Sequence record: PV467749.1
DNA length: 64,000 nucleotides
Reading direction: 5' to 3' (one strand)
Source: a phage
Within the stretch, counting starts at the first letter, position 1. The number at the start of each line of letters is the position of its first letter. Shown piece after piece: positions 1,054-59,744 of the stretch. The notes beneath the pieces are model-generated. The model was not told where the DNA came from, made no database searches, and saw only the letters and a list, made by a program, of their open reading frames with translations. The translations under genes were made by a program, and so were the position numbers.

Positions 1054-6288
<5,235 letters not shown>

Positions 6289-7021: not shown

Positions 7022-7036
7022 TAGGGGGACTACAAT

Positions 7037-7726: not shown

Positions 7727-7747
7727 TAAATTAAAGATAAAAGAAAA

Positions 7748-7773: not shown

Positions 7774-8523
7774 TTTGTATGAACGGAACCCTTCAGGTAA
7801 ACCAGGTAGATTCTCTAACCCTTCGTTCGCATTCACTAGCTTTACGTCATAATCATCACTGAAATCATCCGTAGCTAGTTTACGCCCCATGTCTCTAACG
7901 AAGTTGTCAATAATTTCTTCTTCGTCATTACCTGGATGACCTTCCGCTTTTAACTTTTTCCAAAAGTATTCATTATAATCAAAAACAAATTCAACTTCAT
8001 TTGTTTCTGGATTAAGTACTACATCCAAATCAATCCAAGGTTCTTTACGTAAAGTAAAGATTTCCTTTGAATACTCTTGTTGTGTAATCTCTTCATAACG
8101 ATATGCAAACTCGATAGCTTTAAGACGTTTGTCATCACCATCAGGCATTAGTTCGATTACTTCCATATCATACTCTTTTTGAGTAATTGCACCAGTACTT
8201 AATTTAGCATCAAGTAATTTTACATTATACTCATCACGGGTAATCTTGGAATACTTCAATTGTACATCTGCCTGTGCTATTAGATAATCAAGAGTTTCTA
8301 ATACATTGTATTTCTTTTTGATATCCAACTGTGCTACATCAACTTCATATGGTGTTAGATATGTAAGTTCTGCAACTAACATATCAGCTTCATAATCATC
8401 GTTATAGTAGTATGCTTTCGCAATCTCTTTCGCTTTACCAGAAAGTCCCCAATGAGCGGGGACCATCCAGAAAGGAATAAACCTTTTTTTAGCCATTTGA
8501 TTTCTTACCAAAAATTTCTTCAA
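7771..8523 (-). CDS. hypothetical protein (start uncertain, 241-250 aa)
   Basis: ORF downstream of GroES-like gene on same strand; possible ATG start at 8496. Confidence 0.55.
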   Translation of the reverse strand: MKKFLVRNQMAKKRFIPFWMVPAHWGLSGKAKEIAKAYYYNDDYEADMLVAELTYLTPYEVDVAQLDIKKKYNVLETLDYLIAQADVQLKYSKITRDEYNVKLLDAKLSTGAITQKEYDMEVIELMPDGDDKRLKAIEFAYRYEEITQQEYSKEIFTLRKEPWIDLDVVLNPETNEVEFVFDYNEYFWKKLKAEGHPGNDEEEIIDNFVRDMGRKLATDDFSDDYDVKLVNANEGLENLPGLPEGFRSYK

Positions 8524-8791
8524 TTTTCATCACATAATATGTGTCTTCACCACCACCAAGATCTTCAGTGATAGGAGTGTTTAGTGATGAACGACCGAAT
8601 ACAACCATATCACCAACACAAATATTATGTTCTGCAATTTGCCCATTAGGTAGTACTTTACCTTCACCAACTGAAATCACCATACCAACACATGGTGGTT
8701 CCACGTTTCCTAGGATAATACCACCAGTACTTTTATTCTGTGCTTCAATTTGACGAACCAGTACATAATCGTTAATCATTTTAATTTTCAT
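8489..8791 (-). CDS. groES: GroES/Cpn10-like co-chaperonin (T4 gp31 analog)
   Basis: MKIKMINDYVLVRQIEAQNKSTGGIIL...VGMVISVGEGKVLPNGQ...VGDMVVF matches the GroES pattern; ATG 8791 with GGAGG RBS; start overlaps the stop of the upstream zinc-ribbon ORF (ATGA). Confidence 0.8.
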   Translation of the reverse strand: MKIKMINDYVLVRQIEAQNKSTGGIILGNVEPPCVGMVISVGEGKVLPNGQIAEHNICVGDMVVFGRSSLNTPITEDLGGGEDTYYVMKIEEIFGKKSNG

Positions 8792-8792
8792 A

Positions 8793-8999
8793 TCAGTAAC
8801 CTCCAGTGTTTGCAAACCATTTACCACGGAAATAAAGATTAGCACCTTTATCACCAGGGGTAAAAACTTCCAACTTCATAGTCTTTTCACCATTACATTG
8901 AGGACAATCATGAGGTTCTTCACGATTGGCAATTTTTACAATCTTTTCTAAACTGTGTTTACATTCTTCTTTTTCACAACGATATGTATATAATGGCAT
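8793..8999 (-). CDS. small zinc-ribbon protein (CxxC...CxxC, FmdB-like)
   Basis: 68 aa with YRCEKEECKH...HDCPQCNG cysteine pairs; AAGGAAG RBS; translationally coupled to GroES-like gene. Confidence 0.65.
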   Translation of the reverse strand: MPLYTYRCEKEECKHSLEKIVKIANREEPHDCPQCNGEKTMKLEVFTPGDKGANLYFRGKWFANTGGY

Positions 9000-44469: not shown

Positions 44470-44505
44470 AATCAAATGAATGAACGAATTATATGGAGTC
44501 CAAAA

Positions 44506-47500
44506 ATGACTAATAATTTTAAGTTTCAACCTACACAGATGGCTGAAGCAGTACAGAAGAAGCTTTTCATAAAAAGATTGCCTGAGTGGATGCAAGGCTT
44601 AGAAGATATTCAGAAAGTCAGTGATGATGTTATCCAACAATGGTTTAATCCGGCTGAAAACGAATTAGTTGACGGCTACATTGGTGACATGGGTTCTCCG
44701 GCAGCAGCAGGGAACATCTTCTTACACGAGTCAACAGTCGCACGTCAACTATATCAGTTGTCCACTGCGTATGTCTCAAGAAATGATGACTCCAGCATTC
44801 GTTCAATTCAATTTTATGATGATCTAGTTGGCTATATGAATCATTACGGGGCACTAACCGAAAATGAAAGCCGTTTGTTTAATGGTAAGTTCTATTCATG
44901 GACCCCACCAATTAACCCTAACAAAATGAACAACTACAGTTCATATCTATGGGATTCCAAGAATAGCTATAATATCGCAACTCCAGATTATATTGTAATG
45001 GAACGTGGTGCAGAAAATGGAAACACTTGGTCACTACAAAACTTCTGGTACACATTAGGTGAAACTTTAGAAGATGGTACAATCCTAACTGAAGAACTAA
45101 TGCAAGATTCCCGTTTTGTTCGTGCTCGTGCTCCAATTATCGAATACAATAAAAATATCGAACTAATGAACTACGGTACTAAATTCCGTGGGACAGTTGA
45201 TTTGTTCTCTGATATTATTAAACCTGAAGATATCGTACAAAAAGATATTAACAGCGGTATACGTATTGATGGTATTATTCCACAAGATGGTATGCGTATT
45301 CTTTTCACCAGTATTGGTAACAATGGTGAAAACAACCGAATTTATAAAGTATATGTTAAACGTATGCAAGATGGAACACGTGTGTATGGTCTAGCATTAG
45401 ACCCAGACGAAGAATCTGAAAGCCGTCCGAGTGGTGAACCACAAGATGGTGACGTAGTTCTTATTATCAAAGGTAATGAATTTGGTAACAGTTCCATGTA
45501 TTGGGACGGTTCTCATTGGATTCAAGCACAGTCTAAAACTTCTGTGAACGTATTTCCACAATTCCAATTGTATGACCGTAATGGTGTTAAACTAAACAAC
45601 ACTACTACCTATCCATCAAGTACTTTTACTGGTTCTTCATTATTTGGTTTTAAAATTAACTATAATTATGCAACCGATAGCGTTTATGGTTATAACATTG
45701 AACTGGGTGATTACAATTATTACACCTATGAGAATTTCCTACAATCAACTCGTTATACCTACGAGCATTTGGGTGTGGAAGTTGAAATTGATGGACTATA
45801 TTACTATAACGTAATTGGTGAAGGTAATACAATGAACCTAGAAACTGATTGGGTTCGTAGTACTGAATACTCCAAACAATATGTTAAACAAACTCCACAG
45901 GTTGAACGTACAGTAATGTTCCGCGTGTTCAGTACTGTTTATGACATGGAAAGTTTCAAAGATCCAGTTGAAGGAATGTATGCTTATGTAATTGAAGTTG
46001 ACAGAACTTATCAATATTACAAAGCAGAACGTGAAACATATCTTGATTGGCATGTTATCGTTGGTGATGGGGTACAAAGCGTTAAGTACAATCATACATT
46101 TGAATTGGCACAAAAAGTACTAGATAATTCTGATGATATTATCGAACTAGTTGTTGATGGTGTGGAAATAAAAGAATACACCAAAACTGTAGTTAATAAT
46201 CAAGTACAAAGTATTACAATTGATAGCTCTGTTGATTTGGATGAAGATTCTGTTGTACAAATAAGAACTTATAGTAGCACTATCACTCCTAATAAAGAGT
46301 TGGGTGCATATGAAGTTCCAATTAACCTACAAAATAACCCATATAATTCAAACATTGAATACATCAATCAAGGTGATTACACCCTGCACTTCCAAGATAT
46401 TATTCAAAAGAATATTACATCTGGTTCTGCTGATGACTTTAACAATTACGAAGAACGTTTGGCTGCTGGTTTGGTTAATAATGGTGTAGGCACTAAAATT
46501 ATTCAAAACGAAGCGTCCATGTTACCACTAATGGCACATACCGCTAATGAAGATATTGATTTGTTTGAATCAATCATGTTTATGCAAGCAGAATACTTCC
46601 GCTTCATTAACAAGTTCAACACTCAAATGCTTCGTTTGTATGAAGAAGACCCAAGTGCTTTTCTTGGTAATAGTGCATCAAACATCGTAGATGCGATTCT
46701 AACAGCTATTAATATGGGACGTGATAGTTCATTCCCATTCTACTATGACAACGTTGCAAGCACTGCTGGGTTTATTCGTGCATTTGTCCCACCAACTCCA
46801 CAGTTCTTGGGTATTTTGCAAGCTTATACACCACAAAAAGCAACATTCTTAACTGCTGGTAGTAAATCTAGCTGTTATAATATCAGTCATACTGGTGTTA
46901 TTTCAAAAGCATACCGTGTTATCAATGGTGTTGATAAAATGGATGACGTAGTTTTTGAATTGGAAAATCGTATCTTTAATAGTATTGACCTTACTTTCAA
47001 GGATATTGATTATAAACCAGTACTAAACAGTGAAGACCTATTCCCAACTCCATATTTCACTGGTACTGATTATAGTGCAGAAGAAAAGAAAACTCTATTA
47101 CTACGTGGTTACATTAACTTCACAGCAACCAATGGTATTAGTAACAGTACTCATGATTATGATGCAAATAACTGGAGAACTTGGAACTATACTGGTAGTT
47201 ATTATGTTGTTGATGGTCAACGTACTGAAATTCCTGCTCGTGGTTCATGGCGTGCAATCTATACTGACCAATATGGCACATATCGTCCAGCAACCCATCC
47301 GTGGGAAATGATGGGCTTCTCTCAACGTCCTACTTGGTGGAACCAAGAATACGAACCAACCGCAGTTCAAGTTGGTGAACGTGAGGGTGATGTTGTTTAT
47401 GTGTATGAAGCACTAGTAATGAATGAAAATGGTGATTTGGTCCCAAGTGGATTGTGGGATATTGATGGTACTATCGGTGACAGCAGCACTGGTACTATTT

Positions 47501-50500
47501 TGTCCGGTGAACGCCGTGGTCAATATGACAAATACAAGCGTTTCGGTGTACAGCCATTTAAAATCACTAAGACTGGCGAGAAAACCAGTACTGGTATTGA
47601 TATTTGTGAAGTTGAGTATATTGCACCTGAAGTTTTAGGTCTTGTTAGTGGTAATTTAGATCATCGTGCAGAACCGTGGGCTTATGGTGACATGGGTGAC
47701 ATGGAATTCACTTACATGAACACTGCGATGTTTGCTTATGACCAAATGCTTCTTCTATACAAAGCAAAACCAGCACAGTTTGCAAACTATTACTGGGATA
47801 CCCGTAATGATAACCTTAAACCAGTTTATACTGATGGTTCACAGTTCCTTTATGGTGAAACCCGTAAGCGTCTAAACTTTGACAGTGCTACATTAGTACA
47901 TGGTGAGAAAAATACCCGTACTATCGGTTATCAAATGTTTGTTAGTGACTATTTGATGTATCAGAATAAGAACATTACCACCAAATACGGTGACGTTGTT
48001 CGTTCTTCTTATGTCAATGTCGCTCACAAAATTGGTGGCTTTACTAAAGCAGACCAATTGACATTCACTGCTAAATCTTTCGGTTTGATTTCACAAGAAA
48101 ACCAAACTATCGGTCTAGTTCGTTCCAATAACATTCGCGATGAGCAAATGAGTGCAGTAAAAATTACTTGGAATGGTAGTGCATATCAAATTGATGGTTA
48201 TGATTTAGTTGGTGCTAAATTTAAATATAAAATTCCAGTTAAAAATGGAAGAAAAGTAACTCTTAAATTGGAAGACAGAACTGTTGTTCATTACAATGAA
48301 TGGAAATCTGAAGGTACATTAGAATATGGTAAAATATTCAATACATACCAAGAAGTTTATACTTTCATTTGTGGATATGGTGAATATCTAAAAGAACATG
48401 GCTGGATTTTTGAAGATGTAAATGATAGTGGTGCTCAACAAGACTGGACAACTATTGCTAAAGACTTTGTTATTTGGAGTCAGAATAATTTAAGTACTGG
48501 TGAGTTCATCTCCTGTACTCCAAGTGCAGCTAATGCTAAATTTGGTGCAGATTTTGGTTCAGTTCAATCTGTTACACAGAACAGTGGTGGTGTTTGGTCA
48601 CTACTCGATGATGAAAACCAAGGTATCCGTCAATATGAAATCGAAACTTCGCGTATCGGTAACGTATTCACAGTGAGAACTACATCTGAATCACAAAAAC
48701 GTATGGCGTTGATTCGTTTGAGCCTAAGTTCATATGAACACGCAGTTGTTTTTGATGATAAAACTATCTTTGGTGATTACATTTACCAACCAACTTATGG
48801 TGCTATTCAAGAATTGATTAAAATGTATGGTTACATTACTGGGGCATGGACTGGTCGCCTACAAGCACCTGGTTTCATTATCCTAGAAGCAGGAACTTTA
48901 CCATCATTTGAAAAATTAGTAACTGATTTTGAATTATATTATAATAGTGAAACTCCTGTGAGTGATGTTCAGCTTCAAGAGTTATCAAATCACTTGATTG
49001 GCTATCAAACTCGTGATTATCTACAACGTATGATTAGTAGTGATGTTAGTCGTGTTGATTTCTATAAAGGATTCATTCATGACAAAGGTACTAACCAAGT
49101 AATGGAAAAAGTACTACGCGTTTCTAAATCTTACGACACTGATGAATATAAAGCACTACAGGAATGGGCATTTAAGATTGGCACTTATGGTAATATCAAT
49201 GGTAAGAAAAATCTACAATTTAAACTAATCAATGACCAATTTAAACAACAACCACAGATGGTTTCGTTTGATGTTAATGCTACATCAAATGGTACTGGTA
49301 ATGGTATTGTTTATTACGGTGAACAAGGGGTTGACTCACGCTGGATTACTCGTCCAAATGGTAAGTTTTCATTCCCAATGCGTAGTGGAAGAAGTGAGAA
49401 TATCCAACTTCCAGACATTGGCCCAGTAACACTAGATGAAATTTCATACGTTACTAAAGATTTCAGTACTGCATATAATGATCGTATCAATTATATGAAT
49501 AACAGTGGTGAAATACCAGATTCTGTATGGATGTTTAAAGATGGTAATGATTTGTGGAATATTTTCGAACTAGTAGACACTGAAGTTGAGATGCTCTCTA
49601 TCGTTCCAATTGAAAATACCGATGTATATGCAGAACAATTCTGTAAAGTAACTCTAAGTGATGATATCCCACTAAATGATGGTGATTATTATTACTTTGT
49701 TGATGAAACTAACTTTATGCCAGATACATTGACTATAGAAAGTCAATATTATACTGCGGGTAATGACCCTAGAGTTATGGTAGTTCCGTTTGACACTTCA
49801 ATAACTATTGACTTCACTGATCCTGATACTCGCCCACGCTTGTATCGTTATGTTTCACGATTCAGTACTGAAGAGATGCGTCAGGAATACATTGACAGAA
49901 AATATAGTTTTAAAGCTCCACAAAGTACTTTGTTTGACCGCCCAACCACATATGATGAGCGTACTAACATTACTGCGTTGTACCTAAACGTGTTTGACCC
50001 AATCAACGGTGTTATTCCTGGTGCAGCGATGCAGAACGTTACCTACACATCTCCAGTTGACCCAGCACAATACAACAGCAATGGTGAATTGATTCAAGCA
50101 TGGGGTGCTGATAAAGTTGGTCAGGTTTGGTGGAACACCAGCACTGCTTTCTACTTAGATTACACTCGTGCAATCTATGATGCTGATGGTAATGTGGATG
50201 TTGATGCAACAAATGAATATAAACGTTATAACTGGGGCAGATTGCTACCGCACAGTACTGTTGATGTTCTTGAATGGGTATGTTCGCCAGTGGAACCATA
50301 TAACTGGGACAAATACTGTAAAGACGTTGCTAACAAAAATAAAAACAATACTATGTACCTACCAAGCGGAACCGCATTGGAAGATAATTATAGTACGTTC
50401 TTAGAATATGATAGCACAACTGATACTTATGTTACAAAATACTATTTCTGGGTTCGTGATACAATCTATGTACCACCATTGCATTCCAGAACTAAATCTT

Positions 50501-53500
50501 GTACTGATATTGCTCGTATTATTAAAGAACCAGCACAGCTTAACATTCCTTGGTTTGCACCAATCAATGAAAGCTCGTTCATTCTAAGTAATATGCAATT
50601 TGAAGTCAACGATGACACAAGTATTTTAACTGTTTCTTATTACATGGATAATACTGAAGTTATTAAACATGACCAGTATCAATTATGTAAAGAAGGTGAT
50701 AGCTATAACTTCAATCCATCAATCTGGACTTCTATGTGGAATTCTATGATTGGTCAAGAAACTACTGAATCAGGAACTGTTATTGATTTACTATATCCTT
50801 TAGTACCAAACGGTTTAGGTTCTAATAAGACTTGGTTCCAAGATGTAATTGAAGCTCGTAGAAACTTTGTAGAAAGTGCAAATAACTATTATCGCTCACA
50901 GAATATAACAACTAACACTGTTCTAATGGACGAAGTGTTTAATGTTAAAACTACTGAAGTTAACCCGAATGAAGTATCATATCGTGTACTAACTTACAAT
51001 AGTGAATTAGTCATTGCACCTGAAAGTGACAAGTTCAAAGAAAACGACGCAGTACTAGTAAGTACTAGTGGTGTATTACCTAACCCACTATCAACTAGCT
51101 CTGTATATTTTGTGCATATTGATGCTAATGGTTATATTCATCTAATGAATAGTCCATCAAGTGCTGGTAGTGTGGTTACCATTACATTGGAAAACCGTGG
51201 TGAAGGTCAACAGAAAATGATTAAACAATCAGACTATGTTGAAGCACTAGGAACTTCATTGGACATGACCCAGTACTGGTCACTAGCAGATTGGTATGAT
51301 ATTGGTTACGATAAAAATACTGCATATACACAAGAATCCAGCCTAGAAGATGCAAACACTAAGAACTATCAAGTTGGTGACATTATCAGAATTACAGATG
51401 TTGATGGCATCTGGACATTGTACATTAAAGCACAATCACGTGATTCAGTTTACTGGAAAGCAATTGGTCGTGAAAATAGTACAGTTGAATTGAATGATAT
51501 GTTATACGCTGACTATACAGTTCGTGATGCTAATGGTTCGTTGAGTAATCGTGAGATTAACGTTCGTAAAGCACTAGCTTTATTGAAGAACTCATTCGAC
51601 TTACATCAGAGTGAAATTGTGTTTGATATGGTTAAGTATGTTCACGTAGAACAAAGCGTTGTTGATTGGGTATTCAAAACATCTTACATTTATATTGTAG
51701 GTTTAGAACAATCATTAGTACAGAACTATTCCAACGACAACTTGATTAATCAAATCGTTGAGTACTTTGAAGAAGTTAAACCATATAGAACTAAGATTCG
51801 TTCCCAGATTGAACAGAAAACATCAGATGATGATTTAATTAAAGGTTTGTGTAATGATTTAGATCCTAATGGCTATATATTTGCAGATGGGACTTGGGTT
51901 AAAACGGAAAAAGACATTTGGGATTATGAATATGCTCAATTCAATGAGGTAACTCAACGTTGGGAGCAAGTTGGTGAATTGCCAAGTGATTTCGTAACAC
52001 CTAATCGCCGTTTCCAAGAAATTGATGTTATCATGCACTACGACAACACTCAATGTAAACCAAATGATAATTTGGCAAGTGTTGATGTATTGGAAGAAGT
52101 GAATAAGAAATATCAATCTAATGCACAAGATGTTGTTAGTAATTTTGAATTACAACGTTACAAATATACATTCCCAGAATACAGTGATGAAGATTTCGAC
52201 CTATTGGTTGCTTATCAGATGCAATTGTATTACCCAGAATTGAACGTAACTCTAGGGATTGCTTACGGTGTTAACCAATGGTATGCAGACCATGCAGATG
52301 ATTTGGTAGCAACCGCAGAATTCACAGAAACGTTGAATCGTGTATATAAAGAATCAACACAAAATGAAATGTTTAATGACGTAAATCATTACGTTCAGTA
52401 TAACACACTCTCTAACCGTTTGAAATTGTACACAGGTGCAGATGATGAAGTAATTCATGATGAAGTTGGATGTGGATTTAGTGGGTTAACCTATGATGAT
52501 AATCCAAGCACCAGACTACCGTTTGGTTATGCATCCAGTACTGATTATAACTTTGGTTACTTTGAAGTTAGTAGTGAGTTGTATAAAAAGTATGTTTCTT
52601 TAATTAAAGAAAACAATACTACTGCAACTGATGATGAAGTTAGAATTATACTTGAAGTTGAATATGGTGTTTATTCATATCGCCATGTAGATGAAGATGG
52701 AAATCAACGATTCTACAATGACGCAATTCATGTATTGTCCGGTATGCGTGGTTTGTATGACAAAGATGCTACCGACCATTATGAAAAGGCTGAAGAAATA
52801 CTAAGTAGAATGCCTATTGATATTCATGCATTTACTATGATGCCACGAAAATATGTTTATGTTAATGTTAATGGTGTATACGAGAGTATCCCAGATGACC
52901 AAAGCATTGATGATTTCATGGAAGACAAATTCATAACTGACGGTCAACTAGTTCAATTGGCAGAAATAAATCTTGATGACTTACCTCTTGATAGAAATAA
53001 CCCAATGTACAGTGATTATCAGCACATCCTAGATAGCATCACCGATGCTAAGTACTACGATGATATGAATGCATTTGATAACCTAGCACTTGAATCACAA
53101 ACTTCCGAGTTAAAATGGGAAGTTGAAGGTGACGAAGTAGATCCGTACATAATCGACATTTCTGATATTAACCCATCAGGAAGAAAGATTGGTCAGATTC
53201 GCTTCACAGTTGATGGTTATGGATTCAATAGTGTTTCACTAGTTCAATTGAGAGACAATAGTAGATATAAAACTGAAGGTATGGTTATTATCAACCCTTA
53301 TAAAACAACAGAAGCAATTGTTAGTATTCCTTCTTACGCTAAGATTGAAAATGATATTAGTAAATCATACAGTAAGTATGATGAAAAATACTTCTATAAA
53401 ATTAAATCAATTGTTAGTGATACAGAAGCTGAAGTAATTGACAATACCCTATCTGATGGTGATAAGGTTATGATATTCACAACTGATGGTGAAGATTATG

Positions 53501-54477
53501 TGAGATACCAAAACAATGCATGGGAAACCATCTTGAGTGTATCAAAAATCAAAACTGACACCACACCAACCTTGTACACAGTAAGAAACACTGCGAACGG
53601 AACTGTAGAACTACTAGATAGTACTGGAGTTGTACTTCGTTATGATAACATCACTAAACAACAACAAAATGAACCAGCAATACCTCTAGCATTGAACATC
53701 GTTCGTATTAGAACCTTTGCTGATCCAGAATTCTTGGTTGATGGTGTTAAGTTGTATGAAACAAATAGAAACTATGCTATCGACGCAATGAACTATGAAG
53801 TATTCTACGACACAACACTATACGGTGGTTCTTATAATGATGGAATTACACCAGATGACGTTGATGTTTGGGTAGTGTCTAACGAGATATTTGAAGTTGA
53901 TGGTGTTACCATTGATAACGGATATAACTTACCAATTACTGGTGCAGGTGTTCTTAGTGAGTTAGTGAGAACCAAAATGACTGATAGTGTGGAAATTAAC
54001 GTGTTCGAGTATGATGTTGGTATTATTCAACCAGTACTGAATACTGAAGGGGTATGGGAATATGCATATCCACTAGTTAGTGATACATATATTGGTGTAG
54101 TTGGTGGAACAGTAACTAACATTACTGCTATCAGTGAAGAAAATGCTACTTATGTTTCACAACCAGATTCAGTTAGTCCATATAGTGTTACTAATAATGT
54201 TCTATCTGGTGCTGGTGCAAGTATGAATGATATTATTTCTCTTGGTTTTGAAAAAGTTGAAGTACGATTTGCAAATAACTTACTCCGTGGGGTAATGTAT
54301 AGTGCAGAACACGACTTTAAAGAGAATGTGACATATTCATTTAATGGCTTGAACTTAGGTAAAGTTAATTTACTAAAACGTTATAGTGTTAACAGTTATC
54401 CAATCGAACTATCTGTTTACTCCGATAGTTTGCAAATAAGTGGTAATGACATTAAAAATCTATTAGAAGTTAAATAA
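44506..54477 (+). CDS. giant virion structural protein (about 3323 aa), putative baseplate/fibre component
   Basis: Uninterrupted 10-kb ORF; ATG 44506 with GGAG RBS (alternative in-frame ATG at 44476); Asn/Tyr/Asp/Thr-rich; follows gp25- and gp6-like genes; ends at a strong terminator. Confidence 0.6.
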   Translation: MTNNFKFQPTQMAEAVQKKLFIKRLPEWMQGLEDIQKVSDDVIQQWFNPAENELVDGYIGDMGSPAAAGNIFLHESTVARQLYQLSTAYVSRNDDSSIRSIQFYDDLVGYMNHYGALTENESRLFNGKFYSWTPPINPNKMNNYSSYLWDSKNSYNIATPDYIVMERGAENGNTWSLQNFWYTLGETLEDGTILTEELMQDSRFVRARAPIIEYNKNIELMNYGTKFRGTVDLFSDIIKPEDIVQKDINSGIRIDGIIPQDGMRILFTSIGNNGENNRIYKVYVKRMQDGTRVYGLALDPDEESESRPSGEPQDGDVVLIIKGNEFGNSSMYWDGSHWIQAQSKTSVNVFPQFQLYDRNGVKLNNTTTYPSSTFTGSSLFGFKINYNYATDSVYGYNIELGDYNYYTYENFLQSTRYTYEHLGVEVEIDGLYYYNVIGEGNTMNLETDWVRSTEYSKQYVKQTPQVERTVMFRVFSTVYDMESFKDPVEGMYAYVIEVDRTYQYYKAERETYLDWHVIVGDGVQSVKYNHTFELAQKVLDNSDDIIELVVDGVEIKEYTKTVVNNQVQSITIDSSVDLDEDSVVQIRTYSSTITPNKELGAYEVPINLQNNPYNSNIEYINQGDYTLHFQDIIQKNITSGSADDFNNYEERLAAGLVNNGVGTKIIQNEASMLPLMAHTANEDIDLFESIMFMQAEYFRFINKFNTQMLRLYEEDPSAFLGNSASNIVDAILTAINMGRDSSFPFYYDNVASTAGFIRAFVPPTPQFLGILQAYTPQKATFLTAGSKSSCYNISHTGVISKAYRVINGVDKMDDVVFELENRIFNSIDLTFKDIDYKPVLNSEDLFPTPYFTGTDYSAEEKKTLLLRGYINFTATNGISNSTHDYDANNWRTWNYTGSYYVVDGQRTEIPARGSWRAIYTDQYGTYRPATHPWEMMGFSQRPTWWNQEYEPTAVQVGEREGDVVYVYEALVMNENGDLVPSGLWDIDGTIGDSSTGTILSGERRGQYDKYKRFGVQPFKITKTGEKTSTGIDICEVEYIAPEVLGLVSGNLDHRAEPWAYGDMGDMEFTYMNTAMFAYDQMLLLYKAKPAQFANYYWDTRNDNLKPVYTDGSQFLYGETRKRLNFDSATLVHGEKNTRTIGYQMFVSDYLMYQNKNITTKYGDVVRSSYVNVAHKIGGFTKADQLTFTAKSFGLISQENQTIGLVRSNNIRDEQMSAVKITWNGSAYQIDGYDLVGAKFKYKIPVKNGRKVTLKLEDRTVVHYNEWKSEGTLEYGKIFNTYQEVYTFICGYGEYLKEHGWIFEDVNDSGAQQDWTTIAKDFVIWSQNNLSTGEFISCTPSAANAKFGADFGSVQSVTQNSGGVWSLLDDENQGIRQYEIETSRIGNVFTVRTTSESQKRMALIRLSLSSYEHAVVFDDKTIFGDYIYQPTYGAIQELIKMYGYITGAWTGRLQAPGFIILEAGTLPSFEKLVTDFELYYNSETPVSDVQLQELSNHLIGYQTRDYLQRMISSDVSRVDFYKGFIHDKGTNQVMEKVLRVSKSYDTDEYKALQEWAFKIGTYGNINGKKNLQFKLINDQFKQQPQMVSFDVNATSNGTGNGIVYYGEQGVDSRWITRPNGKFSFPMRSGRSENIQLPDIGPVTLDEISYVTKDFSTAYNDRINYMNNSGEIPDSVWMFKDGNDLWNIFELVDTEVEMLSIVPIENTDVYAEQFCKVTLSDDIPLNDGDYYYFVDETNFMPDTLTIESQYYTAGNDPRVMVVPFDTSITIDFTDPDTRPRLYRYVSRFSTEEMRQEYIDRKYSFKAPQSTLFDRPTTYDERTNITALYLNVFDPINGVIPGAAMQNVTYTSPVDPAQYNSNGELIQAWGADKVGQVWWNTSTAFYLDYTRAIYDADGNVDVDATNEYKRYNWGRLLPHSTVDVLEWVCSPVEPYNWDKYCKDVANKNKNNTMYLPSGTALEDNYSTFLEYDSTTDTYVTKYYFWVRDTIYVPPLHSRTKSCTDIARIIKEPAQLNIPWFAPINESSFILSNMQFEVNDDTSILTVSYYMDNTEVIKHDQYQLCKEGDSYNFNPSIWTSMWNSMIGQETTESGTVIDLLYPLVPNGLGSNKTWFQDVIEARRNFVESANNYYRSQNITTNTVLMDEVFNVKTTEVNPNEVSYRVLTYNSELVIAPESDKFKENDAVLVSTSGVLPNPLSTSSVYFVHIDANGYIHLMNSPSSAGSVVTITLENRGEGQQKMIKQSDYVEALGTSLDMTQYWSLADWYDIGYDKNTAYTQESSLEDANTKNYQVGDIIRITDVDGIWTLYIKAQSRDSVYWKAIGRENSTVELNDMLYADYTVRDANGSLSNREINVRKALALLKNSFDLHQSEIVFDMVKYVHVEQSVVDWVFKTSYIYIVGLEQSLVQNYSNDNLINQIVEYFEEVKPYRTKIRSQIEQKTSDDDLIKGLCNDLDPNGYIFADGTWVKTEKDIWDYEYAQFNEVTQRWEQVGELPSDFVTPNRRFQEIDVIMHYDNTQCKPNDNLASVDVLEEVNKKYQSNAQDVVSNFELQRYKYTFPEYSDEDFDLLVAYQMQLYYPELNVTLGIAYGVNQWYADHADDLVATAEFTETLNRVYKESTQNEMFNDVNHYVQYNTLSNRLKLYTGADDEVIHDEVGCGFSGLTYDDNPSTRLPFGYASSTDYNFGYFEVSSELYKKYVSLIKENNTTATDDEVRIILEVEYGVYSYRHVDEDGNQRFYNDAIHVLSGMRGLYDKDATDHYEKAEEILSRMPIDIHAFTMMPRKYVYVNVNGVYESIPDDQSIDDFMEDKFITDGQLVQLAEINLDDLPLDRNNPMYSDYQHILDSITDAKYYDDMNAFDNLALESQTSELKWEVEGDEVDPYIIDISDINPSGRKIGQIRFTVDGYGFNSVSLVQLRDNSRYKTEGMVIINPYKTTEAIVSIPSYAKIENDISKSYSKYDEKYFYKIKSIVSDTEAEVIDNTLSDGDKVMIFTTDGEDYVRYQNNAWETILSVSKIKTDTTPTLYTVRNTANGTVELLDSTGVVLRYDNITKQQQNEPAIPLALNIVRIRTFADPEFLVDGVKLYETNRNYAIDAMNYEVFYDTTLYGGSYNDGITPDDVDVWVVSNEIFEVDGVTIDNGYNLPITGAGVLSELVRTKMTDSVEINVFEYDVGIIQPVLNTEGVWEYAYPLVSDTYIGVVGGTVTNITAISEENATYVSQPDSVSPYSVTNNVLSGAGASMNDIISLGFEKVEVRFANNLLRGVMYSAEHDFKENVTYSFNGLNLGKVNLLKRYSVNSYPIELSVYSDSLQISGNDIKNLLEVK

Positions 54478-54478
54478 C

Positions 54479-54512
54479 AAAAAGGAGAGCATTTGCTCTC
54501 CTTTTCTTTTTT
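54479..54512. terminator. bidirectional terminator (A-run, AGGAGAGC-ATTT-GCTCTCCT, T-run)
   Basis: 8-bp stem nearly identical to the terminator at 7748..7773; between convergent giant gene and ClpA-like gene. Confidence 0.8.
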
Positions 54513-56799
54513 ACGCAATAACTTTTTCTACTGCTTTAGTTCGTTTAGGTTTGATAGCCAATTTACCATCAATCACATCAAACGTTACGTTACCACCATT
54601 AACCAGAGAACCACACAACATCTCTTTAGCTAGTGGAACACGGATGTTTTGCTCAATAGTGCGTTTCATTGGACGTGCACCCATCCCAACTTTAACACCA
54701 TTTGTTGCCAACCACTCACGTGCCGCTTTGGTTAGTGAAACTTTAACTTTGCGGTCTTTGATTTGTTCATTCAAACTTCCCATGAACTTATCAATGATGC
54801 TGTCAATCGCTTCGCTGCTTAGGTCTTTGAATGTCACAATACTATCGATGCGGTTGATGAATTCAGGTGGCAAGAATGCTTTAATCGCTTTATCTTGTGC
54901 TGTATCACTACCGCTCATCCCAATACTACGCTTGGTTGAATCTGCTGCACCAAGGTTAGTTGTCATAATAACAGTTACGTTATTGAAGTAAACAGTTTTA
55001 CCTTGTGAACCAGTCAAACGTCCTTCGTCCAGAACCTGTAGGAAGGTTAGTAGTACTTTACGATCAGCTTTTTCGATTTCATCAAGCAACAGTACTGCAT
55101 TCGGGAACTGCTCAATCTTGTCGAGTAGCAGACCGTTACCGGAATCGTGACCAACATAGCCTGGAGGTGAACCAATCAGTTTAGCAACAGTATGTTCCTG
55201 TGAAAACTCGGACATATCGAAACGAATCAGTTCAGAGCCAGTTGCATCAGCCAGTGCTTTGGTAATTTCAGTTTTACCAGTACCAGATGGCCCAACAAAC
55301 ATGAATGCACCTTGAACACTTGATTTATCACGCAGACCAGCACGAGCTACCATCACGTTATCAACCAGTTTCTGTACTGCTTCTTCTTGACCGTATACAC
55401 GAGAACGTAGTGCATCTGGTAGATTACGCATACGCTCACTTTCAGTGCAAGCAACCACGTTAATATCTAGGTTTGCGATACCTGCAACAACTTCTTGAAT
55501 CAGTGCAACAGTGATGATGTTATCATCAGTTTCACGAGAACGTACTTTCGCTGCCGCCGCATCCATTAGGTCGATTGCTTTGTCAGGGAAGTGTTTGTTC
55601 TTCAGGAACTTATCACTTAGTGTAATAACTGCATCCATTGCTTCAGTACTGAACTCTACGTTATGGAAAGTTTCATAAGTAGATTTCAAACCATTCACAA
55701 TCGCACGGGTTTCATCAATTGTTGGCTCAACTACATCAATTTTCATGAAACGGCGAGTTAGTGCACTATCTTTTTCGATGTTTTTACGATATTCATCGTA
55801 AGTTGTTGCACCGATTACACGAATCTCACCACGAGATAGTGCAGGTTTGAGCATGTTACTCATATCCATAGAACCGTTGCTTGCTGAACCAGCACCAACC
55901 ATAATATGGATTTCATCGATGAACACAATAGTGTTTTCACGTTTCTTCAGTTCTTTGAGTAGGTTATCGATACGTTCTTCGAACTCACCACGGTACTTAG
56001 TACCAGCAGTCAGTGCACCTACGTTCAGAGACAGAATTTCAACATCTTTAAGATGCTCTGGTACTTCACCATCAGCGATTGCCTGTGCTAGACCATCAAT
56101 GATTTGAGTTTTACCAACACCAGCTTCACCAGTCAGGATGGCATTCTTCTTAGTCTTACGGGCCAGAGTTTCAATCAGTGCAGAAAGCTCTTTCTGGCGA
56201 CCAATCATTGGGTCAAGTTTACCTTCTTTTGCAAGTGCGGTTAGGTTAGTGGTGTAATCTTCTAAACCTTTTTGTTTGGACGATGGTTGCTGTTGTGCCA
56301 CTTTTTTCTCCCCAGTTGGCTCATCACTAATGCTTTGAAGGTTGATTCCGTTGTCGATTGCTTCTACGTGCTTCTGTAGAGTTCGTGCTGCTTCAGTACA
56401 AGTGATACCCTCTTCACGCAATGCTGCTTCTAGTGCAGTATTTGGGAAGGACAAACACTCAAACAGTACAAAATAAGCATCAATTGAGAAATCATCACGT
56501 TTAAGTTGCTCAATTACTGATTTCTTAGAAAGTTCCTGAACTACACGGTTCACGAGAAGTGATGTGCGGTTCGCTTCATCACCATCAGCACTTTTAGGTG
56601 CATGTGGGAATGTTGTATTCTTCAGATATGCAATCAAACGACTGTGTAGGTTGTCTGCATCGATGTTCATATCTTCAAATACTGCTTTGATGCTATCGAT
56701 TGTCAGTACTGTAGCACTTAGATGGTCAATAGTCAAGAATGTATGACCCAGAGAAGTTGCCAGTTCGTCGCTTTTTTTGAATAATTGGGTAAGATTCAT
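54511..56799 (-). CDS. clpA: ClpA-like AAA+ unfoldase (two AAA+ modules plus Clp N-domain)
   Basis: 762 aa; D1 Walker A GEAGVGKT and Walker B IVFIDEIH; D2 Walker A GPSGTGKT and Walker B LLLDEIEKA; conserved VYGQEEAV, RFDMSEF, GSPPGYVG blocks; no ClpB-type middle domain; IGM tripeptide at the ClpP-docking loop position; ATG 56799 with AGGAGA RBS (track ORF starts at upstream GTG). Confidence 0.9.
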   Translation of the reverse strand: MNLTQLFKKSDELATSLGHTFLTIDHLSATVLTIDSIKAVFEDMNIDADNLHSRLIAYLKNTTFPHAPKSADGDEANRTSLLVNRVVQELSKKSVIEQLKRDDFSIDAYFVLFECLSFPNTALEAALREEGITCTEAARTLQKHVEAIDNGINLQSISDEPTGEKKVAQQQPSSKQKGLEDYTTNLTALAKEGKLDPMIGRQKELSALIETLARKTKKNAILTGEAGVGKTQIIDGLAQAIADGEVPEHLKDVEILSLNVGALTAGTKYRGEFEERIDNLLKELKKRENTIVFIDEIHIMVGAGSASNGSMDMSNMLKPALSRGEIRVIGATTYDEYRKNIEKDSALTRRFMKIDVVEPTIDETRAIVNGLKSTYETFHNVEFSTEAMDAVITLSDKFLKNKHFPDKAIDLMDAAAAKVRSRETDDNIITVALIQEVVAGIANLDINVVACTESERMRNLPDALRSRVYGQEEAVQKLVDNVMVARAGLRDKSSVQGAFMFVGPSGTGKTEITKALADATGSELIRFDMSEFSQEHTVAKLIGSPPGYVGHDSGNGLLLDKIEQFPNAVLLLDEIEKADRKVLLTFLQVLDEGRLTGSQGKTVYFNNVTVIMTTNLGAADSTKRSIGMSGSDTAQDKAIKAFLPPEFINRIDSIVTFKDLSSEAIDSIIDKFMGSLNEQIKDRKVKVSLTKAAREWLATNGVKVGMGARPMKRTIEQNIRVPLAKEMLCGSLVNGGNVTFDVIDGKLAIKPKRTKAVEKVIA

Positions 56800-56837
56800 G
56801 TATTCTCCTAAATGAGTAGTCACTCTAATTAATAAAC

Positions 56838-56865
56838 ATTATATCACATTCTTTGCGTTTGTCAA
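56838..56865 (-). promoter_or_regulatory. consensus sigma70-like promoter (TTGACA, 16-nt spacer, TATAAT) for ClpA-like gene
   Basis: Minus-strand TTGACA (plus 56860-56865) and TATAAT (plus 56838-56843), about 40 nt upstream of ATG 56799. Confidence 0.6.
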
Positions 56866-56907: not shown

Positions 56908-58404
56908 ATGGCATATAGAATGTGGAAAAAAGGTAGAACCAATGATTACAAGTTCATTGACTCTGCCATAGCAGAACAATACAACATCGGTGGTGTTGAC
57001 ATGTGGCTTTATGCCTATGTCGGACCAAAACAAGTCGCTGATAACACTGATTTATCATACGGCGGTGATTATTATGGATCAGATAGTACCGTTGTGTCAA
57101 GCATTGGTGATTTAATTTTTGGTGACACTCCAAGTCGTAACTATAATCTCGAAGCTATCACCTTAAGTTGCGTCTACCAAGTCCAAGAAGCAACTCCTGA
57201 CTTGAAAATCCCAGGATTGTTCTTCAATTTTAACACAATGGACATCACAATTCATTATAACACAATGATTCAGCGTTTGGGAAGAAAAATTATGCCAGGT
57301 GACGTAATCGAACTTCCTAACTTACGTGATTTTGATGTACTTGGTAAAGATTCTGGTTTAAACCGCTTCTATGTAGTACAAGATGGGTTTAGAACGTCAG
57401 AAGGTTACTCAGTTACATGGCAACATCACATTTACAAACTCCGTGTTAAACCTCTTACTGATTCACCAGAGTACTCTGACCTTCTAGGTAACAATAACTA
57501 CCCTGATGACCCAGATGATCCAAACAACGGCAATGGTAATACTGATGATGGCTCTTCAGAGAACAGCAGTTATGGTAATGAAATGGATATTATGAACCGT
57601 ATCATTATGCAAGCTGATGATGAAGTACCATACATTCATTTTACTAACGAACACTTGTTCGATGACAGACCAGATACTGTTGATTTGTCTAAGTATATGC
57701 TAAATGGATACGAATTACCAGAGGAACCGGCAAATAAAATGTATTTCCTCAAGAAAACTTACCCAGTACTGAAAGAACTATCTAATGATACATGGATTTC
57801 TGTAGAAGTCAAGCGTGGAACAATCTTTCCTCGCAAACCGATGGATGGTGACTTCTTCTTTAAAGAAAACGAGGCTGATGTCACTGGCTTCTCATTGTAT
57901 CAATACGATAAATCTGCCAAAAAGTGGCTAAATTGTGATGTTGAGTATACTACAGAAAGCACACCACCACAAGGGGTTGATGATTTTTATATTGAATACA
58001 AAGAACCACACATTTATCAGTACTTAAATGGTAAATGGGGAGAACCAGAAGTAACTTACGTTAATGACCCATTCACTTCTAATAGTGTTTATGGAAATAT
58101 CGATTCACAACAAGATTATCGTCCTAAGATTCCTCCAGCACGAGGTACAGTTCCTGAAGGTAACATGTTCCCAAGTGATGCAGTTGATGGTGATTACTAC
58201 TATCGTACCGATTATACACCAGTAACCCTATGGGAATACAGTGCGTCCAAGAATTCTTGGGTGATTTTCGATTACGGTGGTAGAAAACCGTGGGAAGGTG
58301 CAGATCTTGCTCTAACAGAATTTGTTAATAGCCCGAACCGTGTGCCATTACATGATGCAGTTAAACCTAATACAGTGTATCGTATACATAAGGATTCAGA
58401 ATGA
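56908..58404 (+). CDS. hypothetical protein, probable virion/tail component (499 aa)
   Basis: ATG 56908 with GGAG RBS (track ORF starts at upstream GTG/TTG); internal DGDFFF/DGDYYY repeat; acidic Asn/Asp-rich linker. Confidence 0.6.
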   Translation: MAYRMWKKGRTNDYKFIDSAIAEQYNIGGVDMWLYAYVGPKQVADNTDLSYGGDYYGSDSTVVSSIGDLIFGDTPSRNYNLEAITLSCVYQVQEATPDLKIPGLFFNFNTMDITIHYNTMIQRLGRKIMPGDVIELPNLRDFDVLGKDSGLNRFYVVQDGFRTSEGYSVTWQHHIYKLRVKPLTDSPEYSDLLGNNNYPDDPDDPNNGNGNTDDGSSENSSYGNEMDIMNRIIMQADDEVPYIHFTNEHLFDDRPDTVDLSKYMLNGYELPEEPANKMYFLKKTYPVLKELSNDTWISVEVKRGTIFPRKPMDGDFFFKENEADVTGFSLYQYDKSAKKWLNCDVEYTTESTPPQGVDDFYIEYKEPHIYQYLNGKWGEPEVTYVNDPFTSNSVYGNIDSQQDYRPKIPPARGTVPEGNMFPSDAVDGDYYYRTDYTPVTLWEYSASKNSWVIFDYGGRKPWEGADLALTEFVNSPNRVPLHDAVKPNTVYRIHKDSE

Positions 58405-59744
58405 AAATAGATTATTATTATGATGGTCAATTTCGTCGAGTACTGAAACATCTTATCAGAGTGTTTGGTGAATTTCAAGTACAAAATGGTGTTGATGCTG
58501 ACGGAAAACCAAAATATAAGAAAGTTCCTTGCCGCTATGCAGATATTTCACGTATGGCAGCAGCAATTATTAATGGTAACAGTGAGAACGTGCTTCCAAC
58601 AGCACCAATCATGACCATTAGTGTAAACCAACTTAAACTAGATCGCAAGTCAGTTCGTTCAAACGCAAATGAAACATTGGTTATGGGGACTAACAAGTCC
58701 CCTGGAATTAACGAATATACTAAAGACTTAGATAAACAGTATAAAGTAACTCGTCATAACCCAGTACCTTGGACATTTACTTTTGATGTTAATATTTGGG
58801 TTACACAAACACAAACCAAAATGGAACTATTTGAGCAAATTTCAACATTGTTTGCTCCTAGTATTCAATTACAACTCTCCGAGAACCCATTGGATTGGAC
58901 ATCATTGAGTGATGTGGAGTTAATTGACTGTCAATTTACTACTCGTGGTTTCCCACAAGGAACCGATAGTGATTTGGATATAATGGTTTTGACATTTGAA
59001 ACAACAATTTGGTTCTCTTTGCCAGCTATTGTTGAGAAACCAAAACTTATTCAACAAATTACCACCAATATTAAAGGTGCTCGTGATGAACTTGATTTTG
59101 AAATTGGTAATTACTCGGATATCATTACTGATGTATTCACACCAAAGAACTTATGTATTAAAGTTGATGAAATAACAAACTCTGAACTTAATATTCCAGA
59201 TACTTACCAACTCACTCTTGTTAGTCAATCACTATCAGAAACATCACCAAATGGTGGAATTTATTCATGGGAAAAATACCTTAAGTACTTGGACCCAGAA
59301 TATGAAGACAAGACGGTTGGTATCAAATTCCAACAAGCTATAGAAGAGGACAACCCACTAAAAGGACACATCTCTTCATTTGGTGAAGGTGCTGAATCTA
59401 ACAAGATTGTAGTTCAGCTTGATAATAGTAATTATACTGTTGATTATACAATACATGGATTCATTAGTAAAAGCTCTTTGTTATATAACGCACTGCCTGA
59501 ACAATATTATGTAAATAATAGCATACATAACATCATTTACAAAGAGACTGAAATCCCAGCGAACTATTTGTTTAAAATTACCAATGATGGAGCAGAACTT
59601 ATTGAGCCATCACTAGTACACAACTATGTTTATAATATGGAAGATAGTGGGTATTATAGATATAATGACAAATTCAAATGGCATAAGAGTATTATGTCAG
59701 TATATCGTCAGGGGTATTGGAAAATAACTTTCACTGACAAATAA
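58401..59744 (+). CDS. hypothetical protein, probable virion/tail component (447 aa)
   Basis: Start overlaps upstream stop (ATGA), suggesting translational coupling. Confidence 0.6.
   Translation: MKIDYYYDGQFRRVLKHLIRVFGEFQVQNGVDADGKPKYKKVPCRYADISRMAAAIINGNSENVLPTAPIMTISVNQLKLDRKSVRSNANETLVMGTNKSPGINEYTKDLDKQYKVTRHNPVPWTFTFDVNIWVTQTQTKMELFEQISTLFAPSIQLQLSENPLDWTSLSDVELIDCQFTTRGFPQGTDSDLDIMVLTFETTIWFSLPAIVEKPKLIQQITTNIKGARDELDFEIGNYSDIITDVFTPKNLCIKVDEITNSELNIPDTYQLTLVSQSLSETSPNGGIYSWEKYLKYLDPEYEDKTVGIKFQQAIEEDNPLKGHISSFGEGAESNKIVVQLDNSNYTVDYTIHGFISKSSLLYNALPEQYYVNNSIHNIIYKETEIPANYLFKITNDGAELIEPSLVHNYVYNMEDSGYYRYNDKFKWHKSIMSVYRQGYWKITFTDK

What the first reader, a model, noticed from the sequence alone, without database searches (positions are those of the whole stretch)
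54511..56865. Phage-encoded full-length ClpA-like AAA+ unfoldase with its own consensus promoter
A complete two-ring ClpA homolog (Clp N-domain, both Walker A/B sets, no ClpB-type middle domain) sits between tail/baseplate genes, insulated by a bidirectional terminator and driven by a near-perfect TTGACA-16-TATAAT promoter (early/host-RNAP-like). Clp unfoldases are rare in phage genomes. The tripeptide at the ClpP-docking loop position is IGM rather than canonical IGL/IGF, and no ClpP gene is in this window, so it may dock onto host ClpP (retargeting host proteolysis) or act as a stand-alone unfoldase. Together with the GroES-like gene this suggests the phage reprograms host proteostasis.
Basis: partly seen in the sequence, partly recalled or inferred. 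Interest (0 to 1): 0.8.

Follow-up and report, generated by a model that had tools for sequence, protein, structure and literature searches.

The report
Jumbo-phage ClpA unfoldase with own ClpP
This is an intact ClpA-type protein-unfolding motor carried by a known group of giant E. coli phages, already annotated in public records, and near-identical relatives also encode their own ClpP protease and a ClpS-like adaptor, so it probably serves a phage-made protein-degradation machine rather than hijacking the host's.

Summary
An intact ORF on the minus strand (54511..56799, 762 aa) encodes a ClpA-type AAA+ unfoldase with two ATPase rings. It has a divergent N-domain, all ATPase motifs, no middle domain, and IGM at the position of ClpA's IGL. 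A perfect TTGACA-16-TGnTATAAT promoter sits upstream and a bidirectional terminator downstream.

The window is an Asteriusvirus-like jumbo coliphage, up to 99.7% identical in DNA to phages EC.P1 and fEgEco12. The gene is already annotated there as ClpA-like. It belongs to PHROG 4871, and the literature notes its conservation across Rak2-like phages.

The genomes of all close relatives encode their own ClpP, about 88 kb away, with an intact Ser-His-Asp triad. They also encode a divergent ClpS-like protein. ClpA and ClpP co-occur across the Rak2-like superclade, so the best reading is a phage-encoded ClpS-like/ClpA/ClpP system expressed before the late genes.

ClpA was not detected in the phAPEC6 virion proteome, although both neighbouring gene products were.

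Two details are not in the papers I read. The docking tripeptide varies widely in the phage clade. The phage ClpP docking pocket differs from bacterial ClpP at two positions.

The substrates and the true partner remain untested. Novelty is low and interest modest.

The parts
54511..56799 (-). clpA-like gene, 762 aa: N-domain about residues 1-150, flexible linker about 156-176, D1 ring about 180-440, D2 ring about 450-750, IGM loop at residues 626-628
   Evidence: [quoted passage not shown]
56838..56865 (-). sigma-70-type promoter TTGACA-16-TATAAT with an extended -10 (TGTGATATAAT)
   Evidence: The extended -10 is conserved out to GAP32. It belongs to a strand-biased class of such promoters in the relative TH47.
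56804..56811 (-). ribosome-binding site TAGGAGAA, a few bases upstream of the ATG at 56799
   Evidence: AGGAGA is invariant across 5 phages
54479..54506 (.). bidirectional intrinsic terminator shared with the convergent 3333-aa virion protein gene
   Evidence: ARNOLD-predicted terminator annotated at the same spot in G17.
44476..54477 (+). convergent neighbour: 3333-aa virion protein (phAPEC6 gp245, detected by mass spectrometry). Context, not part of the Clp system.
56908..58404 (+). divergent neighbour: 498-aa protein, followed by the tail sheath stabilizer / proximal tail protein gene at 58401..59744. Context.
8489..8854 (-).
   Evidence: phmmer against E. coli GroES 1.5e-10; Pfam Cpn10 1.1e-16

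Best explanation
The gene encodes a catalytically competent ClpA-type AAA+ unfoldase with two ATPase rings. It is the ATPase subunit of a Clp proteolytic system that the phage encodes itself.

Shown:
- The ORF is intact and all ATPase and pore-loop motifs are present.
- Its architecture is that of ClpA.
- Near-identical genomes also carry a ClpP with an intact catalytic triad and a ClpS-like protein.
- The ClpA and ClpP genes are co-inherited across the Rak2-like jumbo phages.
- The gene has a sigma-70-type promoter, unlike its late structural neighbours.
- The protein was not found in the virion proteome of a related phage.

Inferred:
- Host RNA polymerase transcribes the gene before the late genes.
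- The protein forms hexamers.
- The hexamers dock through the IGM loops onto the phage ClpP tetradecamer.
- They unfold selected substrates and thread them in for degradation, with the ClpS-like protein modulating substrate choice through the N-domain.

The substrates are unknown. They could be host proteins, early phage proteins that must be removed, or misfolded products of a very large phage proteome.
For: ClpA identity:
- TIGR02639 ClpA matches end to end, E 3.5e-226.
- E. coli ClpA is the best solved structure by sequence, E 4e-178, in one contiguous stretch.
- Identity to E. coli ClpA is 43% over 732 aa.
- The AF2 model has mean pLDDT 79.3 and eight N-terminal helices. It aligns to full-length ClpA 1r6b/1ksf over 755-764 columns, and to ClpA chains from ClpAP complexes at TM 0.70-0.80 (normalised to the target) and 46-47% identity.

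Motifs:
- Walker A and B of both rings, the KYR and GYVG pore loops, sensor 1 and 2 and the arginine fingers are kept in the window protein and in about 111 phage-clade homologs.

Phage ClpP:
- TH47, a 99.1% DNA-identical relative, encodes a 231-aa ClpP, 36% identical to E. coli ClpP, E 2e-34.
- Pfam CLP_protease scores 1.3e-41.
- The Ser/His/Asp triad is invariant in 65 phage-clade ClpPs.
- The gene is present in all 36 Asteriusvirus-like records found, including EC.P1 and fEgEco12.

Co-occurrence:
- ClpA and ClpP are both found in RaK2, GAP32, XbC2, Eneladusvirus phages, the Salmonella 7t3/Munch group, fHe-Yen9-04, PA5oct-like phages and Atu_ph07, at parallel identity levels.

ClpS-like protein:
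- A 181-aa TH47 ORF is the ortholog of GAP32_314, E 5e-34. GAP32_314 passes Pfam ClpS at 41.8 bits.
- A profile of the two proteins hits E. coli ClpS structures at E 3e-8.
- The gene is present in 37 relatives and is annotated ClpS in 121Q, Sharanji and fEgEco12.

Expression:
- The clpA and clpP promoters share the form GACAAA...TGTGATATAAT with a 16-base spacer.
- TH47 has 109 near-consensus sigma-70 promoters on the clpA strand and 8 on the other.
- Neighbouring structural operons instead carry the late-type ATAAATA motif (PMC5259590).

Virion proteome:
- The phAPEC6 virion proteome detected gp245 and gp248, the products of genes on either side, but not ClpA gp246c (PMC7247149).
Against: - No experiment bears on partner, substrates or timing.
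- The ClpP and ClpS-like genes are not in the window. Their presence in this phage is inferred from genomes 99.1-99.7% identical in DNA.
- The three genes lie 80-90 kb apart and are not an operon.
- The docking tripeptide is poorly conserved in the phage clade. About two thirds keep hydrophobic-Gly-hydrophobic, but MSM, MNM, IGG and IGA also occur. Lineages with MNM still keep ClpP. Docking may therefore be weak, lost, or mediated differently.
- The phage ClpP pocket lacks bacterial-type residues at positions 82 and 114. This could mean a co-evolved interface or no unfoldase docking at all.
- The ClpS-like protein of this clade is below Pfam's cut-off (17 bits) and keeps its N-degron pocket residues only in part.
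- The gene's conserved position next to the giant virion protein gene would also fit an assembly role.
Confidence: 0.6

Rival explanations
1. The phage ClpA docks onto host E. coli ClpP and redirects host proteolysis.
For: The IGM loop is hydrophobic-Gly-hydrophobic, like ClpA IGL, and aligns exactly with it. The D2 ring is the best-conserved part. Host ClpP is abundant early in infection, when a sigma-70 promoter would fire.
Against: The phage lineage keeps its own ClpP with an intact triad in every relative checked. This makes dependence on host ClpP unnecessary. The tripeptide drifts widely in the clade, which is unexpected if it had to fit a conserved bacterial pocket.
Confidence: 0.15
2. 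The protein is a stand-alone unfoldase or chaperone that remodels or helps assemble phage proteins without proteolysis. One candidate substrate is the adjacent 3333-aa virion protein.
For: The gene lies next to the giant structural gene and the tail genes in phages as distant as GAP32, at 61% protein identity. In PA5oct and Atu_ph07 it sits beside DnaJ and upstream of large structural proteins (PMC6102473). The tripeptide is degenerate in some lineages (MSM, MNM, IGG). PMC7824862 suggests a translocase or assembly role. E. coli ClpA has chaperone activity on RepA without ClpP (established knowledge of ClpA).
Against: Its promoter class differs from the late structural genes around it. ClpP and a ClpS-like adaptor are co-conserved with it. 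These genomes are broadly syntenic, so adjacency may carry no functional meaning.
Confidence: 0.2
3. The segment is host-derived: contamination or a recent capture of bacterial clpA, or it is really a ClpB/ClpV-type disaggregase.
For: None beyond family-level similarity. ClpB and ClpV models also score highly.
Against: It is only 43% identical to E. coli ClpA. The phage clade (at least 53% identity, about 110 clusters, many on contigs of about 350 kb) is separated by a clear score gap from bacterial ClpA at about 40%. Thirty-nine phage records carry it in the same context. ClpB and ClpV align in two pieces because the protein lacks their middle domain.
Confidence: 0.02

Closest known systems
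E. coli ClpA (ClpAP protease ATPase; PDB 1KSF, 1R6B, 6UQO, 7UIV)
   Same: The domain order is the same: N-domain, D1, D2. There is no middle domain. Both Walker A and B sets, the KYR and GYVG pore loops, the sensors and the arginine fingers are present. A docking loop sits at the same position. Overall identity is 43%, and 46-47% over D1-D2 in structure alignment.
   Different: The N-domain is divergent: Clp_N scores 24 bits and covers the first repeat only. The protein falls below the NCBIfam ClpA equivalog cut-off. The tripeptide is IGM, not IGL, and the loop after it is shorter. D2 Walker A reads GPSGTGKT, not GPTGVGKT. It is encoded by a virulent phage and driven by a phage early-type promoter.
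ClpA-like proteins of Rak2-like jumbo phages (PHROG 4871; 121Q, PBECO4, phAPEC6 gp246c, RaK2, GAP32_229, Atu_ph07 gp292)
   Same: Same family and same genomic position. Protein identity is 99.9% to EC.P1 and fEgEco12, about 93% to the PBECO4 group, 75% to RaK2 and 61% to GAP32.
   Different: Nothing of substance. The tripeptide differs between subclades: IGM here, LGL in one Asteriusvirus-like subclade, IGV in RaK2, LGM in GAP32.
Phage-encoded Clp components listed for Atu_ph07 (ClpX, ClpA, ClpB, ClpP, ClpS; PMC6102473) and for jumbo phages in general (PMC7824862)
   Same: A phage genome carries several Clp parts, including ClpA, ClpP and ClpS. No function has been tested in either case.
   Different: In this lineage tblastn found ClpA and ClpP and phmmer found a ClpS-like protein, but tblastn with E. 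coli ClpX found no separate ClpX gene.

Membership tests
ClpA (class I Hsp100/Clp unfoldase, ClpP-binding) | Two AAA+ modules (D1 and D2) with Walker A/B motifs, pore loops, sensors and arginine fingers | tested here: met
   Pfam AAA, AAA_lid_9, AAA_2 and ClpB_D2-small. Motif-by-motif alignment with E. coli ClpA.
ClpA (class I Hsp100/Clp unfoldase, ClpP-binding) | No coiled-coil middle domain between D1 and D2 (this separates ClpA from ClpB, ClpC and ClpV) | tested here: met
   One contiguous alignment to ClpA, two separate stretches to ClpB, ClpC and ClpV. No long helical insertion in the AF2 model.
ClpA (class I Hsp100/Clp unfoldase, ClpP-binding) | N-terminal Clp_N double-repeat domain | tested here: inconclusive
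   Pfam Clp_N scores 24 bits against a cut-off of 20.7, and covers the first repeat only. The AF2 model shows eight helices, but the second half has pLDDT 50-65. Foldseek alignment to full-length ClpA spans 755-764 columns.
ClpA (class I Hsp100/Clp unfoldase, ClpP-binding) | ClpP-docking tripeptide [LIVM]-G-[FL] in a D2 surface loop | tested here: inconclusive
   IGM sits at the aligned position. The third residue is Met, which is not canonical. The tripeptide is highly variable in the phage clade. Binding cannot be tested here.
ClpA (class I Hsp100/Clp unfoldase, ClpP-binding) | Score above the curated equivalog threshold (NCBIfam TIGR02639 / NF008263) | tested here: not met
   752.9 bits against a cut-off of 993.15, and 649.5 against 1350. 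It is a ClpA-like homolog and not an equivalog by NCBI's criterion.
ClpA (class I Hsp100/Clp unfoldase, ClpP-binding) | Forms a hexamer that activates ClpP-dependent degradation | not testable with these tools
   Needs biochemistry or a prediction of the complex.
PHROG 4871 (phage 'ATP-dependent protease' ATPase) | Full-length match to the family profile | tested here: met
   E = 0, 1021 bits, residues 2-756 against profile positions 11-761 of 764.
ClpP (partner, encoded outside the window in relatives) | CLP_protease fold with a Ser-His-Asp triad | tested here: met
   Pfam 1.3e-41. The triad is invariant in 65 phage-clade sequences.
ClpP (partner, encoded outside the window in relatives) | Hydrophobic unfoldase-docking pocket of the bacterial type | tested here: inconclusive
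   Position 114 is Gly in 61 of 65 phage-clade sequences, against Leu in bacteria. Position 82 is N/S/G/C, against Y/F. Y62, I90 and M92 are largely kept. The residue list comes from my memory of the ADEP and IGF-loop literature, with the numbering checked against the sequence.
ClpS (adaptor, encoded outside the window in relatives) | ClpS core fold recognised by profile | tested here: inconclusive
   The TH47 protein scores 17 bits on Pfam, below the cut-off of 23. Its ortholog GAP32_314 scores 41.8 bits. A profile of the two hits E. coli ClpS structures at E 3e-8. N-degron pocket residues are only partly kept.

The most novel reading that the evidence does not exclude
The phage clade runs an insulated Clp machine of its own. 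The pieces would be a ClpA whose docking loop has drifted away from the bacterial [LIVM]-G-[FL] rule (IGM here), a ClpP whose docking pocket is remodelled at positions 82 and 114, and a ClpS-like adaptor with extra N- and C-terminal segments and an altered N-degron pocket. Together these would form a degradation pathway that does not cross-talk with host ClpAPS and that picks phage-specific targets during takeover of the host.
Probability: 0.25. Interest if true: 0.6.

Novelty: already known. Interest (0 to 1): 0.3.

Why it matters
Phage-encoded regulated proteolysis is barely studied. If this ClpA works with the phage's own ClpP and ClpS-like protein, then Rak2-like jumbo phages bring a complete, separately evolving degradation machine into the cell. 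Such a machine could remove host defence or regulatory proteins, or time the turnover of phage proteins.

The gene itself is already annotated and already discussed. The value here is a corrected reading, namely that the phage has its own ClpP and adaptor. It also yields two testable details: the variable docking tripeptide and the altered ClpP pocket.

Tried and rejected
- **ClpB/ClpV/ClpC identity.** Rejected, because those families align in two pieces and there is no middle domain.
- **Host contamination or recent capture.** Rejected.
- **GTG start at 56823.** Rejected in favour of the ATG at 56799. The reasons are the ribosome-binding site, the annotation in relatives, and an indel upstream of the ATG.
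- **ClpX, DnaJ or a close ClpS in the relative TH47.** tblastn with E. coli ClpX and ClpS gave nothing beyond the ClpA D2 ring. phmmer with PA5oct DnaJ found nothing. ClpS was found only through the GAP32 ortholog.
- **Covariation between the ClpA tripeptide and ClpP pocket residues.** Across nine phage pairs (some matched only by equal contig length) plus the E. coli reference pair there was no clear pattern, and there are too few lineages to judge.
- **Expression timing in the literature.** I found no RNA-seq for this phage group. The PhageExpressionAtlas preprint mentions only host clpP/clpX. The fEgEco12 and Sharanji papers do not discuss Clp genes.
- **ClpA as a virion protein.** The phAPEC6 proteome does not list it.
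- **Not attempted:** mapping ClpS-contact residues on the N-domain, because I could not recall the residue list reliably.
Full report
**1. What is in the sequence**

The minus strand carries one long intact ORF at 54511..56823, 770 aa from a GTG. Relatives annotate the ATG at 56799, which gives 762 aa. That ATG is preceded by TAGGAGAA. The stretch between the promoter and the ribosome-binding site carries an indel between phage clades, so the upstream GTG is unlikely to be the start.

Upstream lies TTGACA-16-TATAAT with a TG extension at 56865..56838, a 12 of 12 match. The window holds three perfect sites against 0.27 expected, and none of 100 shuffles reached three.

Downstream, a hairpin at 54479-54506 with T-runs on both sides is shared with the convergent gene. 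It folds at -18 and -16.6 kcal/mol on the two strands, z-scores -5.3 and -5.9. A terminator is annotated at the same place in phage G17.

**2. What the protein is**

Pfam finds AAA, AAA_lid_9, AAA_2 and ClpB_D2-small. NCBIfam's ClpA model matches end to end at E 3.5e-226, but at 752.9 bits it is below the equivalog cut-off of 993. ClpB, ClpV, ClpK and ClpG match in two separate stretches.

Among solved structures E. coli ClpA is best, E 4e-178, in one stretch from residue 17 to 741. Identity to E. coli ClpA is 43%.

All catalytic and pore-loop motifs of both rings are present. They are conserved across about 111 phage-clade homologs.

The N-terminal 150 residues give only a weak Clp_N hit, 24 bits on the first repeat.

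An AlphaFold2 model built on 35 homologs has mean pLDDT 79.3. It shows eight N-terminal helices, a disordered linker at 156-176 and a flexible loop at 624-630 that holds IGM. Foldseek aligns it to full-length ClpA over 755-764 columns. It aligns to ClpA chains of ClpAP complexes at TM 0.70-0.80 when normalised to the target.

The protein is therefore a ClpA-type unfoldase with a divergent N-domain and no middle domain.

**3. Where the window comes from**

The region is 99.7% identical in DNA to Escherichia phages EC.P1 and fEgEco12. It is about 84.5% identical to PBECO4, G17, phAPEC6, Sharanji and related Asteriusvirus jumbo phages. [quoted passage not shown] It matches PHROG 4871 over its full length.

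Orthologs at 60-75% protein identity occur in RaK2, the Salmonella Munch/SE_PL group, GAP32 and the Eneladusvirus phages. More distant ones, at about 40%, occur in PA5oct-like phages and Atu_ph07.

In the large protein database the phage clade (at least 53% identity, many members on contigs of about 350 kb) is followed by a score gap. Bacterial ClpA appears only at about 40%. This is an old phage gene and not a recent capture or contamination.

Attai et al. state that ClpA is highly conserved in most Rak2-like phages (PMC6102473). Iyer et al. list ClpA, ClpX, ClpP and ClpS among jumbo-phage genes (PMC7824862).

**4. The partner question**

The window has no ClpP. I assembled the complete genome of TH47, a 99.1% DNA-identical relative, from eight fetched pieces. 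It encodes a 231-aa ClpP:

- It is 36% identical to E. coli ClpP, E 2e-34.
- Pfam CLP_protease scores 1.3e-41.
- The gene is present in all 36 Asteriusvirus-like records found, including EC.P1 and fEgEco12, about 88 kb from clpA.
- It is present across the Rak2-like superclade, in PA5oct-like phages and in Atu_ph07, at identity levels that parallel those of ClpA.
- Ser97, His122 and Asp171 are invariant in 65 phage-clade ClpPs.

These phages also have a separate T4-type prohead protease (phAPEC6 gp227c). ClpP is therefore not their head-maturation enzyme, despite that label in some records.

A ClpS-like gene also exists. E. coli ClpS finds hits in GAP32, fHe-Yen9-03 and fHe-Yen9-04, Kaldavass, PA5oct-like phages and Atu_ph07. 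GAP32_314 passes Pfam ClpS at 41.8 bits. Its TH47 ortholog (phmmer 5e-34) scores only 17 bits. A profile of the two hits E. coli ClpS structures at E 3e-8. The gene is in 37 relatives, next to an IF-3-like gene, and is annotated as ClpS in 121Q, Sharanji and fEgEco12.

**5. Docking interface**

IGM aligns with ClpA IGL. Across the phage clade the tripeptide counts are:

| Tripeptide | Count |
|---|---|
| MGM | 16 |
| IGM | 15 |
| IGV | 11 |
| LGM | 9 |
| IGA | 9 |
| LGL | 8 |
| MSM | 8 |
| IGG | 5 |
| MNM | 5 |
| VGF | 4 |
| IGF | 3 |
| others | 18 |

The bacterial homologs in the same alignment read IGF or MGF (one divergent intermediate, P0113, reads IGY), and E. coli ClpA reads IGL.

In the phage ClpP, position 114 is Gly in 61 of 65 sequences, against Leu in bacteria. 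Position 82 is N, S, G or C, against Y or F. The pocket residue list comes from my memory of the ADEP and IGF-loop literature, and I checked its numbering against the sequence.

Nine phage ClpA/ClpP pairs, some matched only by equal contig length, plus the E. coli reference pair showed no clear covariation. Lineages with MNM still keep ClpP.

These facts fit a co-evolving phage-specific interface. They would also fit weakened docking.

**6. Expression**

The clpP promoter in TH47 is TAGACA-16-TATAAT, with the same TGTGATATAAT extended -10 as clpA. In TH47, near-consensus sigma-70 promoters number 109 on the clpA strand and 8 on the other. By my count of that listing, 28 are perfect on the clpA strand and none on the other. 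Most precede small ORFs in a long one-directional region.

The extended -10 upstream of clpA is conserved out to GAP32, where the -35 reads GGAACG. This resembles the TGAAACG class described for CBB and GAP32 (PMC5259590).

Several structural operons in the window carry ATAAATA 35-55 nt upstream of the start codon, the late-type motif of that paper. clpA does not.

The gene is therefore an island transcribed against the flow of the late module, from a host-polymerase-type promoter. Early or middle timing is inferred, not shown.

**7. Virion association and synteny**

The phAPEC6 virion proteome lists gp245 (the 3333-aa protein) and gp248 but not gp246c, the ClpA homolog.

GAP32 keeps the same gene order: giant protein, clpA, a protein of about 498 aa, tail sheath stabilizer, NUDIX. 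In PA5oct a DnaJ gene lies directly upstream of clpA and structural genes follow it.

**8. Verdict**

The identification as a ClpA-type unfoldase is right.

The functional reading should change. The phage lineage has its own ClpP and a ClpS-like protein, so a phage-encoded Clp protease is the best-supported model (about 0.6). A stand-alone chaperone role (about 0.2) and host ClpP docking (about 0.15) are the rivals.

The gene is already annotated and discussed in the literature. Novelty is low and interest modest. The variable tripeptide and the altered ClpP pocket are the only points not mentioned in the papers I read.

Noticed in passing
TH47 genome (L006-L013); in the window at 56838-56865 (-) and 17453-17481 (-): Near-consensus sigma-70 promoters are extremely strand-biased in the relative TH47: 109 on one strand and 8 on the other. 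Many share a spacer ending in AGTACTG just before TATAAT. A cassette TTGACT-TCGGTCAGCCCTTTTTGC-TATAAT recurs six times (with one or two base differences between copies) between TH47 122.9 and 138.5 kb.
   Followed up: partly
window 44476-54477 (+): A single 3333-aa ORF, homologous to phAPEC6 gp245 (382 kDa), which was detected in virions by mass spectrometry. Its function is unknown. It ends at the terminator it shares with clpA.
   Followed up: partly
window 8489-8854 (-); TH47 194341-194667 (-): A GroES-like gene (Cpn10 E 1.1e-16) lies in the window. A second, weaker Cpn10-like gene (22.6 bits) lies elsewhere in the relative. This matches the two GroES-like genes reported for phage CBB.
   Followed up: partly
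window, upstream of genes starting at 2358 (-), 6422 (+), 15559 (-), 18736 (-), 19942 (-), 27855 (+), 39223 (+), 40195 (+), 62483 (-): An ATAAATA or TATAAATA motif lies 35-55 nt upstream of several structural operon starts. This is the late-promoter-like motif described for CBB and GAP32. It is absent upstream of clpA.
   Followed up: partly
L015 (PA5oct) 5284-8202; Atu_ph07 gp292/gp293: In distant relatives a DnaJ-like chaperone gene sits directly beside clpA. phmmer with the PA5oct DnaJ found no DnaJ homolog in TH47 (PMC6102473).
   Followed up: partly
Pectobacterium phage CBB, gene CBB_104 (literature): The CBB virion proteome lists the phage ClpP with a single peptide at 4.5% coverage. This could be trace carry-over or a minor packaged component.
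   Followed up: no
MH494197.1 (phage CMSTMSU) 319830-322416: In this record the clpA region is annotated as three fragments (ClpA twice and ClpB). The match is 14 bases shorter than the query, which probably reflects indels in that assembly.
   Followed up: no
TH47 204859-205991 (-): The ClpS-like gene directly follows a phage IF-3-like gene, behind a perfect TTGACA-17-TATAAT promoter. The protein has about 65 extra N-terminal and about 40 extra C-terminal residues compared with bacterial ClpS.
   Followed up: partly
window 59757-60221 (+): A NUDIX/MutT-like hydrolase gene lies at the end of the tail gene cluster. It is in the same position in GAP32.
   Followed up: no
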